A stretch of 64,000 nt of DNA from a virus (Duplodnaviria; Caudoviricetes), in IMG/VR virus record IMGVR_UViG_3300035507_000332; one strand, given 5' to 3'. The notes under the pieces were generated by a model. The model did not search any database and had not been told where the DNA came from. It worked only from the letters and a program-made list of their open reading frames with translations. How positions within the stretch are numbered: the first letter of the stretch is position 1; each line of letters opens with the position of its first letter. The position numbers were made by a program, and so were the translations under genes. Shown here piece after piece: positions 1 to 21,256 of this stretch.

Positions 1-3000
1 ATTCAAAGACGCCAGTTTCAAAACAACCTTCCTGAAGGACATCTTCGGTTTGTACCAGGTTGACAAATCCATCGCTCTCTTAAACGACATGGGTAAGTCG
101 CTTGACGACTTGGATAGAAACCAGTTGCAGAAAATCTCTAATAGATTTGATGAACTGGGGCTTAAGGTCAAAATCTTCAAGGAAAACGGCGAAACTCGCA
201 GTGGCATCGACGTCTTAAAACAAATTAGTCAAGAAAAAGAAGGTAGAGACAAGAATTCTAAGGAATACAAAGCTCTCGATGAAGGCGAAAAACTCGTCAG
301 CAAAGGCACTTCTGACTATGAAAAGAACATGCGCAATGCTGAGAACGCCACTACCGAAGCGTACATGAAGAACGAAGTTCTCAATGACACGCTCGACGCT
401 CAAATTGAGAAATTCAAAACCCTTGGCCAGCAAGCTCTCTCAACGTTTGGTAACACAGCTTTCCTAGATAACGCAAAGGAAAGTTTGAAGGCTATCAACA
501 CCGTCCTTGAATTGATTAACGAATCAATGAGCGACGGTGCGCTGAAATATGCTCTACAGGGCATCTCGGAAGTTATTACAGGTCCAGGCTTAGCCATTGG
601 TATAGCGGTATTGGTTAAAGGCTTTTCAACCGCCTTTACTCAAATTAAAAATTCCGCCGAAGCTTTCCTCGGATTGAATCAGCAACTAAAGCTCCAACAA
701 GAAATCGAAAGAGCTACTCTCCAGTATGTTCAGCAACATGCTGATTTACAAGGAGTGATGATGAAAAGCGAAGCGGATATCCAAAACGTCGCTGTAGAAG
801 TAGCCGCTGCATTCCAAGCTCAAGAACTTTCAGTCAAGAATCTAGCAACAAACCTAGCTAAAGTCGCTGCGCTTGTAAGGTCAACAATGCCAAACCTACA
901 ATCAGTAGGTCAATTAAGCATTGAGTATCAATCAGACCAAGCAAGAAAACTAATTAAGAAAACTGGGTCAATTTCAAACTTAGCTACAGGCGACGACGCA
1001 ATCACCAAGGAAATTACATCTATTAGAAATGGTGTAGGTGGTGCGCAAGGTAAAGACAAGCCTGTTATCTTGGATAACTTCCCACTCAATGGTGTTAAGC
1101 AAACTATTGTTGCCAACACTGGGGAATACATTGTCGATATGGGGAACGGTCGTAAGTCCATCCTCAACCGCAATCAGTACAGAAAGATTCAAGAAGGCAA
1201 AAACTTTGCTAAGGGAACTAATAATGGAGATTTTGATATTCTCGATCCTACTAGCTCGAAATTCCTTAAGAGTTGGGGGGTTAATAGTAATAGAGATTTT
1301 GTCGTAAAGCAAGATGTTATCTTGAAAATTGCTCAAGGCGAGGACAACTTGTTCTCTAAAGAAGCTGCGCCTAGACTTCAGTATAGACCAAAATCTGGGG
1401 AGATCTTATTCGACAACAACGACTTGTTTAATAATACATCGTCGACACCATCTGAGCTTAAGAACTTGAATGAGTTGCCTGAGCAAGAATTAAAAGACGC
1501 TCTTATCAATCAGATGCGTTTTTTCAATACTGCTTTTGAAAAATCCCTATCTGACATCAAAGCTGGTGAAGGAGCATTTGCCGATCTTACCCCTGAACAA
1601 AAGGAGATATATACAAAGAATATCACCGAGGCTCAGAAAAACATTAACAAAAATTTTGTTACAGCGGTCCTAAACTCGAATAGCAAACTTGCAGAGCAAT
1701 TTGCCAAAAACAAAGGTCCTGTTACGACAACTGGTATTAAACCTCAGTCCTTACAAGACGACGAAAACATCAACCCTGAAGGCCCTCAAACTCAAAACGT
1801 CATATCGAACCTTCAGAAAGAAATTCAAAAGAGCGAAGAAGAACAAGAAAGAAAGAAAAAAGCTTCTACCCCCAAAACTCCTAAGAAGAGGCAAACTTGG
1901 AGATCTCTTTGTCAACCTGCTGACAAAGAAGGAGCAGAGTCAGAAGCTTCTGCTTCAACGCCTAATGTTGTCGATCCTCCTGTTGTTAAGCAAAAGACTA
2001 CGAAGCCGACTATAGCTACAGCCAAACCTGTAGCGACTACGACTATGGACGCTGTTATCGCCCAGACTTTGAAGTCGCAACAAGCTCAAGCTAACAATCC
2101 AGTAACGCTAACTTTTACTTCTGCTTCTGCCGCAAAGCCTACGCAAGACATTTCTAGCGAGAAATCGCTTATCGAGCAGAAATTGAAAGAGATTCAAGAA
2201 TCGAAGGCAAAGGTTGATGGGCTGGCGAAGCTGACTCTTACTCCTATTGTTGCTCCTCAGTCTGTTCCTTCTCCTGCGGTAAACCCTACTCCAGGCGTTA
2301 AGGATGTAGCTCCTGTTTTAGTCCCAACTACTGAGCCTAAAACAGAACCTATATCTGTACCTGAGCCTAAGCCTCAAACCACTCTTGAAGGTCTTCTTTC
2401 AAAGACAACGCAAGCAACAGAAGCTGTGCTTCAGGCAAATTTGAAAGGAGTCCTTCCTAATATTTCAAGAGTAATAGGTGAAGGAGATAAACTCTCTGCG
2501 TTCCCAGAAATTGCAGGGAAATCAGCTGCTTTCTCCGAGAGGATGAGCATAGCACAAGAAGAGCTTAAGCAGGTAGAAAACGAATTAACAAAGATTGCTA
2601 CAGGCGCAGCTCCTGCATCTCCAGAAGTTCTTGATAAAGTATCTGCAAGATTAGATAAAATCTTTGCCGATATCCAAGCTGTTAATTCTTTAGCTAGAAC
2701 GCTAGAAGAAGATGTAAATCTCGTCGAAAAAGGAACAAGAAAGAAAAAAATTGAACCTCTTTCTGAAGCAGAAGTTGCTAAAGAAATGACGGACCCAGTT
2801 GAATCTAAGAAAAAAGCTGGTAAATCCTTCGCAAGAAACCATGTTTCCTTCAAGAAGAATCTCGCTTACTCAGATTTGGTGACACATGCGAAGAAAGGAG
2901 ATTTTGAAGATCCGAAATTTGTAAAAACGTTGCCTCTTGGCGTTAAACGAACTTTGGGCGTTGAAAAATACCCCGACAAGACTCCAGAAGAACATAGGGT

Positions 3001-18577: not shown

Positions 18578-19102
18578 TTATTTCCCAGTAGAGCCGAATC
18601 CTCCAGACCCACGAGTTGTTTCTTCTAAGGTCTCGGAGAATGATACTTCTACTGGAATTCTCTTAGCAAAGATGATTTGCCCGATCTTATCGCCCTTCTG
18701 GTAGATCTTCTTCATATTTGGCACGATGTAAAGTCGTCCGTCAATGATTCTGTAATCTGAAGGCGCAGGTAAGTAGTTAAAGCGAAGACAAATCTCTCCT
18801 CGATAACCATTATCAATTACACCGACAGAGTTGCAAAGCTGTAGTCTATACTTGCTCACTGATGAACGTGGATATGCTAGTGCAAACACGTCCTTATCTT
18901 CTGGTTGCATGTATATGCCTGTGTGGTACTCGATGTAGTCAATTGCCATGTATGCTTCGCAATTGAGCGTCGGTAAGTAAATAGAATCGCCCTTAATGGT
19001 TGGTTCAAGAATTGCAGTTACATCAAACCCTGCATCTTCTGAATGTGCCGTAGAGAATTCTACTTTACCTGTTTGCAAGAGTGTTACCTTGGTTGATTGC
19101 AT
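18578..19102 (-). CDS. dut: Trimeric dUTPase
   Basis: AGFD, PRSS, GVIDNGYRGEI, GDKIGQ, RGSGGFGSTG motifs. Confidence 0.95.
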   Translation of the reverse strand: MQSTKVTLLQTGKVEFSTAHSEDAGFDVTAILEPTIKGDSIYLPTLNCEAYMAIDYIEYHTGIYMQPEDKDVFALAYPRSSVSKYRLQLCNSVGVIDNGYRGEICLRFNYLPAPSDYRIIDGRLYIVPNMKKIYQKGDKIGQIIFAKRIPVEVSFSETLEETTRGSGGFGSTGK

Positions 19103-19109
19103 TAAGAGT

Positions 19110-19137
19110 AGGGTATCAGGTGGAATTCTATAGTCAA
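19110..19137 (-). promoter_or_regulatory. Sigma70-type promoter of dut operon (near-leaderless)
   Basis: TTGACT-16nt-TACCCT, 7 nt before ATG; -35 flanked by inverted repeat GGTGGAATTC/GAATTCTACC. Confidence 0.5.
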
Positions 19138-19370
19138 GGAATTCTACCTCAATGCCTTTTAGGCATACCTCTCCTTAAGAACATAACTTGGTTGGGTTGA
19201 TGCAATGGTTGCCCTAATGCAAGCACAGTTGTTCACCCAGCCTATTGCTCCTCGTCACTCATCGAACATAGTCCGATGAGATGCCAAGGACCCTACATGC
19301 AGTAACGATTTAAATTTGTTTTTAAAAGAATTTAAAGGACAAAAAGGAACGCAGGAAGAAAGCTCCGAGC

Positions 19371-19533
19371 AGCTAGACGCTTGCTATAGGCAGGGGTAGC
19401 ATCTAAGGCTTAGGCTGAAACTGTATGCCTTAGCTAGGGTAGCGTCTAAGGCCTATAGCAGCTAGAGGTAAGCTATAGCTAAGGCTAGCGTCTAAAGCTT
19501 TAGCTATATATGGTAGCTATAAGTACCTCTAGC
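19371..19533. repeat. Iteron-like repeats and palindromes
   Basis: TAGC(G/A)TCTAA(G/A)G at 19397, 19440, 19486, inverted partial copy at 19374; GCTAGAGGTA/TACCTCTAGC inverted pair 19461-19533; AT-rich tract at about 19308-19336. Confidence 0.7.
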
Positions 19534-19549
19534 ATAGAAGGTATACCGA

Positions 19550-19942
19550 TGAGGTGGCCGCCGGTAACAGAGCCTTGAGCAGGTAGACTTACACCCCCCT
19601 TCGGGAAAGGGAGGCGTAAGTTGAAGCTCAATTGAGGTTTTCGCCGTATAACGGTCGCTCTCACAGTCTAGAACTAAACAGGAGGAGTATCTTCATTTCT
19701 GGTTGCGGTCACTCTGTAAACCAGTCAGCTTTCGGCTGTTCCTCCTGCTACACCACATTTTTCAATGTCAGTGGCGGGGTGTCCCCATCCAGAATCACAG
19801 TAGATTTCCGTGCAGGGATTTGAATCGCTTTGTTTTTTCTACAGAATCGCCGCAATCGGAGTTTCCTTGCCGTACTGCTTGTCTATTCTGCCCTCTGCCA
19901 TATAGGAAGAGCCGAGGGTACGCTGTCAATCACGTATCTACG
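19550..19942 (-). ncRNA. Putative structured non-coding RNA (~400 nt), unassigned family
   Basis: Dedicated promoter, no credible ORF, nested stems with G-U pairs only on the minus strand (19587-19621 hairpin; 19679-19747 multibranch); ends approximate. Confidence 0.55.
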
Positions 19943-19946
19943 AGTG

Positions 19947-19975
19947 ATGTTACACAAAAACTGCGCAAGAGTCAA
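19947..19975 (-). promoter_or_regulatory. Sigma70-type promoter firing into the non-coding region
   Basis: TTGACT-17nt-TAACAT with extended -10 TG; overlaps a GTGTAA motif. Confidence 0.65.
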
Positions 19976-20026
19976 CAAAAAGTAAAAATTTTTTCTTCAA
20001 CTCATAAACAAGACCATGAATAAACG

Positions 20027-20055
20027 TTGACTTTAGGCGCATTATGGGTTAAAAA
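20027..20055 (+). promoter_or_regulatory. Putative promoter of replication operon
   Basis: TTGACT-17nt-TAAAAA, ATG at 20066. Confidence 0.45.
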
Positions 20056-20065
20056 AGCACTTGCC

Positions 20066-21256
20066 ATGAAGAGAGAGAAACTCCCTAGTATTCAAGATTC
20101 AACAGTCTTCTCTTATGCGACAACCCCAGAAAGGTACGAGTTTGCTTGGGAAATCGCCGAAGAGTTGTACTACAAGTTTTATATCAAAGGGTTATTCAGG
20201 AGCTTTGCAAAACGATATAACGCATTTAACGATTCTCTTAAAGGCATTGGAACGCTAGAGAAGCGAGACATCCAGTCAATGTTCTGCGACCTCTCCAGGC
20301 ACGTCGAAGGAGTCTACATAGCGGACAAGTACAGAAGCACCGACTGGGTAGCAGAGGCAAACGAGTTTGCAACAACCTACAACTACTTCGTGCGCAAGAT
20401 AGCAGTCAACATGGACAAGGTAGGATTTGCAATCTCTGCCGACGACTATGTAATCAACAAAGAAGAGCTAGTGGACAAATCTCTCTACAACGGCAAAAAG
20501 CTCATCTCAAAGATACGTCGAGAAGAAAAGGCACGCTTTGCGAAGATCGAAGAAAGAAAGGGAGTACCAGAAAACGCCCAGAATGCCCCTAAAACGCTCG
20601 ACCCTGTCTTAGCCGAAGAATCAGACATGCTCGACCTACAACGCAATTTAAGGGGCATTAAGAGGCTTTGTAACGAGTTTTCAGGCGAGCCATTCATTCC
20701 AGAGAGTGACATCAAGAGAATTCGATACGCTGCCGAACACATCCGAGAAGAGATAACCAAGAAGGCAGAATCGAATACTTTGACGAAATCCGACGTTAGC
20801 AAGTACATGTACGACCTTTGGGAAATCGAAGGGGTCAACAGAGACATGTTCATGAGCTACCAAGAAGCCTACGAACAAGAAGCTCTCAAGGAGAATTTTG
20901 GCTTTTCAGATACAACAGAAGGTGAATTCCAAGTAGTTGAAGAAATTCACGACTTAGACCACGTAGAGCTAGAAAAGCACGAAACACACGTTGAGAACGT
21001 TCGAGAAGCTATAAAAGCAAAGTATATCCCTAAGCTTAAGGCGTTAAAAGAATTCAGAGAAACATTTAAGGACAACAAGTCAATCGAAGTCCTCATCAAA
21101 GAGATAACGGCATTGGTTGACTTTGCCACGAAGGCATGGAAAGATAATGAATGTCTCCTGTCCGACTTTGTCTCCTTCGAGGAGAAAATGGTATCAGTAG
21201 AAGAAGCAACCGCACGCTTCGTTTGTACAGGAGAATATCACACTAACGAACAATAA
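20066..21256 (+). CDS. Hypothetical helical protein
   Basis: Long ORF; ATG after promoter preferred over TTG at 20027. Confidence 0.7.
   Translation: MKREKLPSIQDSTVFSYATTPERYEFAWEIAEELYYKFYIKGLFRSFAKRYNAFNDSLKGIGTLEKRDIQSMFCDLSRHVEGVYIADKYRSTDWVAEANEFATTYNYFVRKIAVNMDKVGFAISADDYVINKEELVDKSLYNGKKLISKIRREEKARFAKIEERKGVPENAQNAPKTLDPVLAEESDMLDLQRNLRGIKRLCNEFSGEPFIPESDIKRIRYAAEHIREEITKKAESNTLTKSDVSKYMYDLWEIEGVNRDMFMSYQEAYEQEALKENFGFSDTTEGEFQVVEEIHDLDHVELEKHETHVENVREAIKAKYIPKLKALKEFRETFKDNKSIEVLIKEITALVDFATKAWKDNECLLSDFVSFEEKMVSVEEATARFVCTGEYHTNEQ

What the first reader, a model, noticed from the sequence alone, without database searches (positions are those of the whole stretch)
19550..19975. Unannotated ~400 nt structured minus-strand RNA with its own promoter
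Seen: TTGACT-17-TAACAT promoter points into DNA with no credible ORF. The transcript folds into a ~16-bp hairpin (19587-19621) enclosed by UUGAGC/GCUCAA; its irregular pairs are G-U on the minus strand but A-C mismatches on the plus strand, which fixes the strand. A multibranch domain is closed by CAGGAGGA/UCCUCCUG (19679-19747) with two inner stems. It does not look like tRNA, tmRNA or a group I intron. Inference: a new ncRNA class, or a replication pre-primer (G6 tract near its 3' end, as in ColE1 RNA II or T4 origin R-loops).
Basis: partly seen in the sequence, partly recalled or inferred. Interest (0 to 1): 0.8.

Follow-up and report, generated by a model that had tools for sequence, protein, structure and literature searches.

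The report
New large structured phage RNA gene
The ORF-free gap between the two replication-gene clusters of this uncultivated phage holds a real, roughly 390-nt, intricately folded non-coding RNA gene with its own promoter; it is conserved with many compensatory base-pair changes in about nine related phage lineages, matches no known RNA family, and its function is still unknown.

Summary
Window 19550-19975 (minus strand) holds a sigma-70-type promoter (TTGACT-17-TAACAT) followed by a ~390-nt RNA. It has about eleven helices, a three-way junction and a candidate pseudoknot.

Homologues lie at the same syntenic place, between dUTPase and an orphan gene next to the UvsX-like gene. They occur in eight further phage lineages whose UvsX-like proteins are only 41-59% identical. 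One strain carries a second copy, about 65% identical, with its own promoter.

Covariance models built only from the distant relatives find the window's RNA (E 8e-13, 9e-6, 0.2 for the three domains). In the model-fitted alignments 94-98% of cells pair, against 26-52% when partners are slid. 57 of 74 pairs change on both sides. G-U outnumber A-C pairs 67 to 10, which fixes the minus strand.

There is no Rfam match, no conserved ORF, no tRNA and no terminator. This is a new RNA family.

Function is inferred only. The favoured reading is a cis-acting RNA at the adjacent repeat/AT-rich candidate origin (about 0.35). A free-standing ornate RNA or RNP is almost as likely (about 0.3).

Expression could not be tested.

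The parts
19947..19975 (-). Promoter of the RNA: -35 TTGACT (19975-19970), 17-nt spacer, -10 TAACAT (19952-19947). The inferred start is about 19940.
   Evidence: The same TTGAC[A/T]-16..18-TA... promoter occurs in all homologues. In strain L007 it reads TTGACA-17-TAATAT inside a diverged patch.
19842..19936 (-). 5' domain. P0 is UACGU/GCGUA (19936-19932 / 19923-19919). P1 is CCCUCGGC/GCAGAGGG (19918-19911 / 19898-19891). P2 is CAGAAU/AUUCUG (19890-19885 / 19847-19842). P2 encloses P3, GCAGU-A-CGG / CCG-AUUGC (19878-19870 / 19859-19852), which has a bulged A.
   Evidence: Model R2, seeded only from distant relatives, hits 19821-19919(-) at E 7.7e-13. 97.3% of cells pair and 17 of 22 pairs change on both sides. 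P2 and P3 are also recovered by RNAalifold on a plain MAFFT alignment.
19818..19841 (-). Conserved single strand UAGAAAAAACAAAGCGAUUCAAAU. GCG at 19828-19826 is the 5' side of the candidate pseudoknot.
   Evidence: Near-invariant in all lineages. The partner pair 19828:19705 covaries as GC:3, UA:3, AU:2.
19751..19817 (-). P4, a variable hairpin (19817-19783), and P5, CGCCAC/GUGGUG (19776-19771 / 19756-19751), whose 5' strand is the conserved CCCCGCC.
   Evidence: Independent MFE folds of ten sequences give the same two hairpins. P5 pairs were counted.
19679..19747 (-). Three-way junction. P6 is CAGGAGGA/UCCUCCUG (19747-19740 / 19686-19679). P7 is CAGC-CGAAA-GCUG (19738-19726). P8 is CUGGUU/AACCAG (19724-19719 / 19704-19699), with a conserved 14-nt loop UACAGAGUGACCGC (19718-19705).
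   Evidence: Model R1 hits 19677-19779(-) at E 8.8e-6. 94.4% of cells pair and 28 of 33 pairs change on both sides. All six P8 pairs covary on an unfitted alignment.
19550..19658 (-). 3' domain. It holds the GCGAC motif (19658-19654) and P9, CGACCG-UUAUA-CGGCG (19657-19642). P10 is the long hairpin (19621-19587) with a conserved GGGGUG. The P11 region is GGC[UCUGUUACCGGCG]GCC (19574-19556) with a conserved CCGG. R1 (19653-19634) and R2 (19569-19551) form a weak internal direct repeat flanking P10.
   Evidence: Model R3 hits 19555-19654(-), weakly (E 0.22). In the fitted alignment 98% of cells pair and 12 of 19 pairs change on both sides. The R1/R2 repeat is strong in relatives. The last conserved position is about 19550; the 3' end is not defined.
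19300..19549 (.). Context only, not shown to be part of the RNA. Two tandem long hairpin/repeat units (19382-19460, 19461-19533) and an AT-rich run (about 19300-19350) lie directly downstream of the RNA. This is a candidate origin or regulatory region.
   Evidence: families D1-D3, inverted repeats I2, I6, I8, I9, I16. The region is 100% identical between strains. Relatives have an AT-rich repeat region at the same place. No terminator separates it from the RNA.
20027..21256 (+). Divergently transcribed neighbour gene: an orphan all-helical protein of 409 aa. It is more likely 396 aa, starting at the ATG at 20066. It is always next to the RNA gene, so it is a candidate partner or initiator. No function is shown.
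   Evidence: Homologous to the 599-641-aa protein at the same place in relatives. The family has only 5 clusters among 1.84 billion proteins. No Pfam or PHROG match and no PDB fold match.

Best explanation
Shown: 19550-19975(-) is a genuine, independently promoted gene for a ~390-nt highly structured non-coding RNA. It founds a new family confined, as far as searched, to a clade of uncultivated siphophages. These phages encode DnaE, DnaB, DnaG, a UvsX-like recombinase, SSB and dUTPase.

The RNA has two domains. The 5' domain is P0-P3 plus an invariant A-rich strand. The core is P4-P5 and the P6/P7/P8 three-way junction. The two are probably tied together by a pseudoknot between the P8 loop (..GACCGN) and N'CGAUU of the A-rich strand. 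A less conserved 3' domain follows (P9, P10, P11).

Inferred (my probability about 0.35): the RNA acts in cis at the neighbouring replication origin. Host RNA polymerase starts at the consensus promoter early in infection. With no terminator, it transcribes through the folded domain into the repeat/AT-rich region immediately downstream. The folded RNA, perhaps with the adjacent orphan protein, then helps open or prime that region, as an R-loop or pre-primer or as a platform for loading the initiator or helicase.

The confidence below is for this mechanism. My confidence that it is a real structured ncRNA gene of a new family is about 0.9.
For: Reality of the RNA:
- An nhmmer profile of the window copy plus the L007 paralogue hits only the syntenic gap, minus strand, in L061-64, L066, L072 and L071 (E 1e-12 to 2e-19).
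- Models R1 and R2, seeded only from the L061 group, find the window, L007_B, L071, L067 and L074 full-length and nothing else in 199 kb.
- R3 is weaker. Its one match in L071 lies outside the gap and is a false positive, it has no match in L067 or L068, and the window match is E 0.22.
- Pair counts in the three fitted alignments are 94.4%, 97.3% and 98.1% paired, against 36-52% for slid partners. 28/33, 17/22 and 12/19 pairs change on both sides. No shuffle out of 500 reached the observed values.
- On alignments not fitted to the structure, P2, P3 and P8 covary.
- The pseudoknot pair is always Watson-Crick, with three types (L074).
- All three SNPs between strains inside the core lie in P3, and each keeps pairing through G-U.
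- Strand: 67 G-U against 10 A-C cells.
- The promoter is conserved in all lineages.

Origin-linked mechanism:
- The RNA sits at the divergence point of the two replication-gene clusters.
- No terminator-like site follows it in four lineages.
- Repeats and/or AT-rich DNA lie directly downstream in every lineage.
- Direct repeats that evolve in concert flank the P10 palindrome.
- The G-run in P10 is conserved.
Against:
- Cumulative GC skew shows no turning point at the locus.
- Known phage origin transcripts (T4 oriF/oriG, T7; established knowledge) are not elaborately folded. A conserved pseudoknot and invariant loops are more typical of RNAs that work through a 3D fold, such as ribozymes, RNP scaffolds and ornate RNAs.
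- The 3' domain next to the putative origin is the least conserved part.
- Strain L007 carries two tandem copies, which is odd for an origin.
- AT-rich DNA downstream may simply be the promoter region of the dUTPase operon.
- The pair counts for P1, P5-P7 and P9-P11 come from model-fitted alignments, which lean towards the structure.
Confidence: 0.35

Rival explanations
1. A free-standing, trans-acting 'ornate' RNA. The ~390-nt transcript is processed to a stable species that works through its 3D fold. It could be an RNP with a phage or host protein, such as the clade-specific orphan protein next door. It could also be an RNA-only oligomer, for example through the conserved palindromic CCGG of the P11 loop. 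In this reading it has no direct role at an origin.
For: - High structural complexity, with invariant loops and a pseudoknot.
- Its own consensus promoter.
- A second diverged copy with its own promoter behaves like a self-contained gene cassette.
- CCGG is conserved in the P11 loop in most lineages.
- Precedent: GOLLD and ROOL are large phage or prophage RNAs of unknown function that assemble through kissing loops (PMC12286853).
Against: - No terminator or other defined 3' end in any of four lineages scanned.
- No tRNA island nearby, unlike GOLLD and ROOL.
- P11 is not clearly formed in L074 or L071.
- No protein partner is identified: the orphan protein has no recognisable fold.
Confidence: 0.3
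2. A cis-acting leader of the leftward early operon (dUTPase, dNMP kinase, SSB and others). The folded RNA would stay with, or act on, the transcribing polymerase or the downstream mRNA. Possible modes are processive antitermination in the manner of HK022 put or lambda nut, or a large riboswitch-like sensor that controls the nucleotide-metabolism genes.
For: - Same orientation as the operon, with no terminator between them.
- The RNA promoter is closer to consensus than the promoter-like site next to dUTPase.
- The position right after a divergent early promoter pair resembles pL/nutL (established knowledge).
Against: - 250-440 nt separate the RNA from the next gene on that strand, and more than 1000 nt in L067. 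That spacer has its own promoter-like sites.
- In L067 the next gene is not dUTPase.
- There is no counterpart after the rightward promoter, whose gene starts at once.
- It is five times larger than put and has no expression platform overlapping a ribosome-binding site or a terminator.
Confidence: 0.15
3. A DNA-level element with no functional RNA. The helices would be hairpins of single-stranded DNA (G-T wobble is tolerated there too) or protein-binding repeats of an origin or single-strand initiation site. The promoter would serve only the downstream genes.
For: - Direct repeats R1/R2 evolve in concert around a palindrome.
- The locus lies in the replication module.
- Strand asymmetry cannot separate RNA from one strand of ssDNA.
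Against: - About eleven nested helices, a three-way junction, GNRA-type loops and a pseudoknot are conserved over about 390 nt. This is far beyond known ssDNA initiation signals.
- The promoter keeps a fixed position and orientation just upstream in all lineages.
Confidence: 0.05

Closest known systems
GOLLD and ROOL RNAs (large ornate phage or prophage ncRNAs; PMC12286853)
   Same: Phage-encoded, hundreds of nucleotides long, with many covarying helices, pseudoknot or kissing-type contacts and no known function.
   Different: No covariance-model match. It is smaller: about 390 nt, against roughly 580 nt for ROOL (my recollection) and over 800 nt for many GOLLD members (PMC12286853). It is not near tRNA genes. 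It lies in the replication module. Its distribution is very narrow, one phage clade.
ColE1-type RNA II pre-primer (established knowledge)
   Same: A several-hundred-nt folded transcript from a sigma-70 promoter that runs into an origin without a terminator. A G-rich segment matters for the hybrid.
   Different: No sequence or model similarity. No antisense RNA I-type promoter was found inside. It is phage-borne, not plasmid-borne. Its G-run is paired in a hairpin. The hybrid and RNase H processing are untested.
T4 oriF/oriG and T7 primary-origin transcripts (established knowledge)
   Same: Phage origins where a promoter-driven transcript enters an unwinding element and primes or activates replication.
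   Different: Those transcripts have no conserved elaborate fold. Here the fold is the most conserved feature.
HK022 put and lambda nut leader RNAs (established knowledge)
   Same: Structured RNA immediately downstream of an early phage promoter, acting in cis on the polymerase.
   Different: put is about 70 nt with two stem-loops and occurs after both pL and pR. Here the RNA is about 390 nt and lies on one side only.
Catalogue of over 10,000 candidate structured RNAs in viruses and phages (PMC10690425)
   Same: Comparative prediction of phage intergenic structured RNAs from IMG/VR.
   Different: Those candidates are 29-151 nt long and needed at least 3 unique IMG/VR regions. IMG/VR scans found no relative of this RNA. 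Overlap with a fragment cannot be excluded, because I did not read the supplementary alignments.

Membership tests
Any Rfam 15 family (including GOLLD, ROOL, OLE, HEARO, raiA, RNase P, tmRNA, 6S, group I/II introns, RNAI) | Covariance-model match at or near the family's gathering score | tested here: not met
   No match at gathering thresholds in the 64-kb window. At E<=10 in 18900-20200 there are only four chance-level hits (best 18.6 bits against a gathering score of 45), and none lies in 19550-19975. No match at E<=0.05 in five homologous loci.
GOLLD / ROOL | Encoded in phages or prophages, often beside tRNA islands | tested here: not met
   It is phage-encoded, but ARAGORN finds no tRNA in the whole window. 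The neighbours are replication genes.
GOLLD / ROOL | Homo-oligomeric RNA-only assembly through kissing loops | not testable with these tools
   The only lead is a conserved palindromic CCGG in the P11 loop.
ColE1-type RNA II primer | Transcript runs from its promoter into the origin without termination | tested here: inconclusive
   No terminator-like site in four lineages, and repeat/AT-rich DNA lies downstream. That the region is an origin is not shown, and GC skew is uninformative.
ColE1-type RNA II primer | Antisense regulator (RNA I) transcribed from the opposite strand within the 5' part | tested here: not met
   The promoter scan finds no plus-strand promoter-like site in 18900-20300. 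This is a consensus scan only.
ColE1-type RNA II primer | Persistent RNA-DNA hybrid cut by RNase H to give the primer | not testable with these tools
   Needs DRIP or RNase H mapping.
Group I intron | Interrupts a gene, with exons that join to an ORF; P3-P7 core with a G-binding site | tested here: not met
   No model match. The element lies between divergent genes, is not inside an ORF, and has its own promoter.
Protein-coding gene / small ORF | An ORF conserved in frame among homologues | tested here: not met
   The longest ORFs differ in strand, frame, length and sequence among nine homologues. Stops occur in all frames under tables 11 and 4 and under TAG=Q.
put / nut antitermination leader | Short two-hairpin RNA following both early promoters | tested here: not met
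   The element is about 390 nt and lies on the leftward side only. The rightward gene starts about 35 nt after its promoter-like site.

The most novel reading that the evidence does not exclude
This is the first member of a new class of large pseudoknotted phage RNAs whose folded structure is itself the active agent. It could be a catalytic RNA, an RNA-only assembly, or an origin-specifying RNA that replaces or guides a protein initiator together with the clade-specific orphan protein. On that reading it would be neither a passive primer nor a leader.
Probability: 0.3. Interest if true: 0.9.

Novelty: categorically new. Interest (0 to 1): 0.8.

Why it matters
Large, intricately folded bacterial and phage RNAs are rare. 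Nearly every one studied (RNase P, group I/II introns, OLE, GOLLD, ROOL, HEARO/omega RNAs) has revealed unusual biochemistry.

This one is short enough for structure probing and cryo-EM. It has a clear promoter, a strong comparative model and a fixed genomic partner set: a replication module plus an orphan protein found only with it. If it acts at the origin, it would be the first phage example of an elaborately structured origin RNA. If it is free-standing, it adds a third family to the enigmatic ornate phage RNAs, in a different genomic context.

'Categorically new' refers to the RNA family, which meets no defining feature of any known family. Whether its mechanism is new remains unknown.

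Tried and rejected
- Rfam, at gathering and permissive thresholds, on the window and on homologues: nothing.
- tRNA/tmRNA scan: none.
- Alternative genetic codes (table 4, TAG=Q): no protein-like ORF.
- blastn of the gap against 50,697 phage records: no match.
- tblastn of the UvsX-like protein against the same records: no match. The best DnaE hit is 33% identical, to a Moorella phage.
- The search for related loci in IMG/VR with the orphan protein, the UvsX-like protein, dUTPase and a UvsX alignment: no true relative.
- Exact-motif scans of IMG/VR and the JGI metagenomes with three conserved RNA motifs: only chance hits inside coding regions.
- Scan of GTDB genomes with the UvsX alignment: one distant contig from a Flavobacterium MAG (32% identity), without the RNA.
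- A second copy in the window's own genome: none.
- Enrichment of the TTGAC-N16-TGTAA promoter form elsewhere in the window: none.
- GC skew as an origin marker: uninformative.
- MAFFT plus RNAalifold on the whole central region failed to align the variable hairpins. Covariance models were used instead.
- RNAalifold proposed pairing N'CG with CGA of the GCGAC motif. I rejected this: that pairing breaks in L066, whereas the P8-loop partner covaries perfectly.
- UUGAGC/GCUCAA enclosure of P10: not conserved.
- AlphaFold2 model of the orphan neighbour protein (pLDDT 74, all-helical) plus Foldseek against the PDB: no match at E<=0.001.
- Pfam and PHROGs on the orphan family: nothing.
- Type III toxin-antitoxin array, CRISPR mini-array and retron msr/msd were considered for the downstream repeats and rejected. 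There is no toxin, cas or reverse-transcriptase gene nearby, and the repeat period (43-46 or 89 nt) does not fit.

Full report
**Context**

The window is part of an 80.9-kb IMG/VR virus record, estimated 56% complete. The finding lies in a 924-nt gap without credible ORFs (19103-20026). If the neighbouring gene starts at the ATG at 20066, as in the 396-aa forms, the gap is 963 nt.

- To the left, on the minus strand, are dUTPase (18578-19102), two unknown genes, a dNMP kinase, SSB and a DNA methyltransferase.
- To the right, on the plus strand, are an orphan 409-aa gene, a UvsX/RecA-like recombinase, an HNH protein, a DnaB-like helicase, a DnaG-like primase, a PD-(D/E)XK nuclease, a DnaE-type polymerase with an exonuclease domain, and an AAA ATPase.
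- Lambda-like tail genes follow.

The element therefore sits at the divergence point of the replication module of a large siphophage. This phage has no cultured relative: there is no UvsX hit among 50,697 phage records, and the best DnaE hit is 33% identical.

**The observation**

- The promoter TTGACT-17-TAACAT is at 19975-19947(-).
- The hairpin is at 19621-19587.
- CAGGAGGA/UCCUCCUG (19747-19740 / 19686-19679) encloses two stems.

Taken alone these features are weak. The promoter scan finds as many sites as in shuffled sequence. The folding z-score is -2.5 on the minus strand and -1.5 on the plus strand. Rfam finds nothing. There are no tRNAs. No frame is open under tables 11 or 4 or under TAG=Q.

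**Homologues**

The orphan neighbour protein belongs to a 90% cluster seen on about 20 contigs. Most strains have an identical gap.

Strain L007/L008 carries an extra ~590-nt insertion just upstream of dUTPase. The insertion is a diverged paralogue of the element, about 65% identical, and it includes a TTGACT-17-TAACAC promoter.

Relatives of the UvsX-like protein at 59-41% identity led to contigs with the same gene order and an ORF-free gap of 690-1757 nt at the same place. These are L061/62/63, L064, L066, L067/68/69, L071 and L072. A profile search with the orphan protein added L074.

An nhmmer profile of the two window-type copies hits only that gap, on the minus strand, in L061-64, L066, L072 and L071 (E 1e-12 to 2e-19). 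L067 and L074 share the motifs and are found by the covariance models.

**Structure and covariation**

Independent MFE folds of ten sequences give the same architecture. I built three covariance models using only the L061-group sequences as seed and searched all loci.

| Model | Region | Window hit | E (window) | Other hits |
|---|---|---|---|---|
| R2 | P1-P3 | 19821-19919(-) | 7.7e-13 | L007_B 1e-9, L071 4e-8, L067 6e-6 |
| R1 | P5-P8 | 19677-19779(-) | 8.8e-6 | L007_B 1e-6, L071 5e-5, L067 0.3 |
| R3 | P9-P11 | 19555-19654(-) | 0.22 | L007_B 0.017 |

R1 and R2 gave no match outside the syntenic gap in 199 kb. R3's only match in L071 lies outside the gap and is a false positive.

Pair counts on the resulting alignments:

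| Alignment | Cells paired | Slid partners | Pairs changed on both sides |
|---|---|---|---|
| R1 | 94.4% | 36-45% | 28 of 33 |
| R2 | 97.3% | 37-51% | 17 of 22 |
| R3 | 98.1% | 38-52% | 12 of 19 |

No shuffle out of 500 reached the observed values. These alignments are fitted to the model, which inflates pairing. However, P2, P3 and P8 show the same covariation on plain MAFFT alignments.

A tertiary contact is indicated. The last base of the invariant P8 loop (UACAGNNUGACCGN, window 19705) is always Watson-Crick to the base before CGAUU in the invariant A-rich strand (window 19828). The pair types are GC:3, UA:3, AU:2, and L074 adds another U:A. Close relatives differ here: L066 has U:A and L072 has A:U. 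The flanking G-C, C-G, A-U and G-U pairs could extend this helix across one C-A mismatch.

**Strand**

Over 651 cells, 96.2% pair when read as minus-sense RNA and 87.4% when read as plus-sense. There are 67 G-U against 10 A-C cells. The three SNPs that separate the window from L007_A inside the core all fall in P3 and keep pairing only through G-U on the minus strand.

A TTGAC[A/T]-16..18-TA... promoter precedes the element in every lineage. It is retained, and even improved to TTGACA-17-TAATAT, inside a patch that is otherwise about 35% diverged between strains. No ORF is shared among the homologues. The element is therefore a minus-strand RNA gene.

**Extent**

The 5' end is inferred at about 19940. 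Conservation runs to about 19550. No intrinsic-terminator-like site follows in the window, L007, L061 or L071, so the 3' end is undefined.

**What lies around it**

Downstream of the RNA the window has two tandem long hairpin/repeat units (19382-19533) and an AT-rich run. Relatives have extremely AT-rich repeats there. The L061 group also has a conserved palindrome, CAATTTGCTTGTCAAATTG, near the dUTPase promoter.

Within the RNA's 3' domain, the P9 hairpin plus its tail recurs after P10 as a direct repeat that evolves in concert within each lineage. The repeat scores 40 against 15±3 for shuffles in L072 and is weak in the window.

The divergent neighbour gene encodes an all-helical orphan protein. 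Homologues of 599-641 aa always occupy this position. The family has only five 50%-identity clusters among 1.84 billion proteins, no Pfam or PHROG match and no PDB fold match.

**Mechanism**

Nothing computed here shows what the RNA does.

- Favouring a cis role at an origin: its position in the replication module, read-through into repeat/AT-rich DNA in every lineage, the concerted direct repeats around a palindrome, and the conserved G-run.
- Against that role: uninformative GC skew, the fact that the origin-proximal domain is the least conserved, the tandem second copy in L007, and a fold far more elaborate than known origin transcripts need.

My probabilities are: origin-linked cis action 0.35, free-standing ornate RNA or RNP 0.30, leader of the leftward operon 0.15, DNA-level element 0.05, and something else such as an anti-defence decoy for the remainder.

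**Comparison with known systems**

It meets no defining feature of any Rfam family. It resembles GOLLD and ROOL in being a large ornate phage RNA of unknown function (PMC12286853), but it is smaller, unrelated and not near tRNAs. It resembles ColE1 RNA II in layout only.

A published catalogue of phage structured-RNA candidates covers motifs of 29-151 nt that occur at least three times in IMG/VR (PMC10690425). This RNA has no IMG/VR relatives, so it is unlikely to be in that catalogue as a unit.

**Verdict**

This is a real, well-supported new family of large structured phage RNA. Its function is open and it is of high interest.

Noticed in passing
L007:1590-2050 (minus strand); the same in L008: One strain carries a second, ~65%-identical copy of the whole RNA gene with its own TTGACT-17-TAACAC promoter. 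It is inserted in tandem between the first copy's downstream region and dUTPase. The insertion is flanked on the left by a copy of GTGGAATTCTATAGTCAAGGAATTCTACCTC and on the right by a diverged copy of it. This suggests capture from a related phage by recombination at the dUTPase promoter.
   Followed up: partly
window 19653-19634 and 19569-19551 (minus strand); stronger in L072, L066, L061 and L074: An internal direct repeat flanks hairpin P10: the P9 hairpin plus an 8-10-nt tail recurs after P10. The two copies differ between lineages but match within each lineage, which is concerted evolution. They could be duplicated protein sites, alternative pairing partners, or DNA iterons.
   Followed up: partly
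window 20027-21256 (+): The orphan all-helical protein is homologous to 599-641-aa proteins at the same place in relatives but lacks their ~220-aa central region. The family has only five 50%-identity clusters in 1.84 billion proteins. The true start is probably the ATG at 20066 (396 aa), as in other strains and in the alignment.
   Followed up: partly
window 20028-20060 (+): TTGACTTTAGG.GC.T.ATGGGTTAAAAA is conserved between strains inside an otherwise diverged patch. It lies back-to-back with the RNA promoter, with 52 bp between the -35 boxes. It is probably the rightward early promoter, leaving almost no leader before the ATG at 20066.
   Followed up: no
window 19926-20026 and 19120-19200, compared with 19200-19925: Between the window strain and L007, the RNA core and the downstream repeats are nearly identical, while the flanking promoter regions are about 35% diverged. 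This is a recombination mosaic with boundaries at the edges of the RNA and repeat block.
   Followed up: no
window 19382-19533: Two tandem units of ~75-89 nt each fold into a long imperfect hairpin. The outer arms are 19461-19470/19524-19533 and 19382-19391/19451-19460, each with nested inner arms. There is no counterpart sequence in relatives, which have AT-rich repeats there instead.
   Followed up: partly
L061:~2683-2703 (+); also in L064, L066, L072, L074: A conserved palindrome, CAATTTGCTTGTCAAATTG, sits inside a longer inverted repeat (TACTAGAGT...ACTCTAGTA) just upstream of the dUTPase promoter in the L061 group. It looks like an operator. It is absent from the window.
   Followed up: no
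L064, L067, L068 (DnaE genes): The DnaE polymerase genes of some relatives carry Intein_splicing and LAGLIDADG Pfam hits and are longer (1431-1669 aa). In L071 the exonuclease and polymerase are encoded by separate genes.
   Followed up: no
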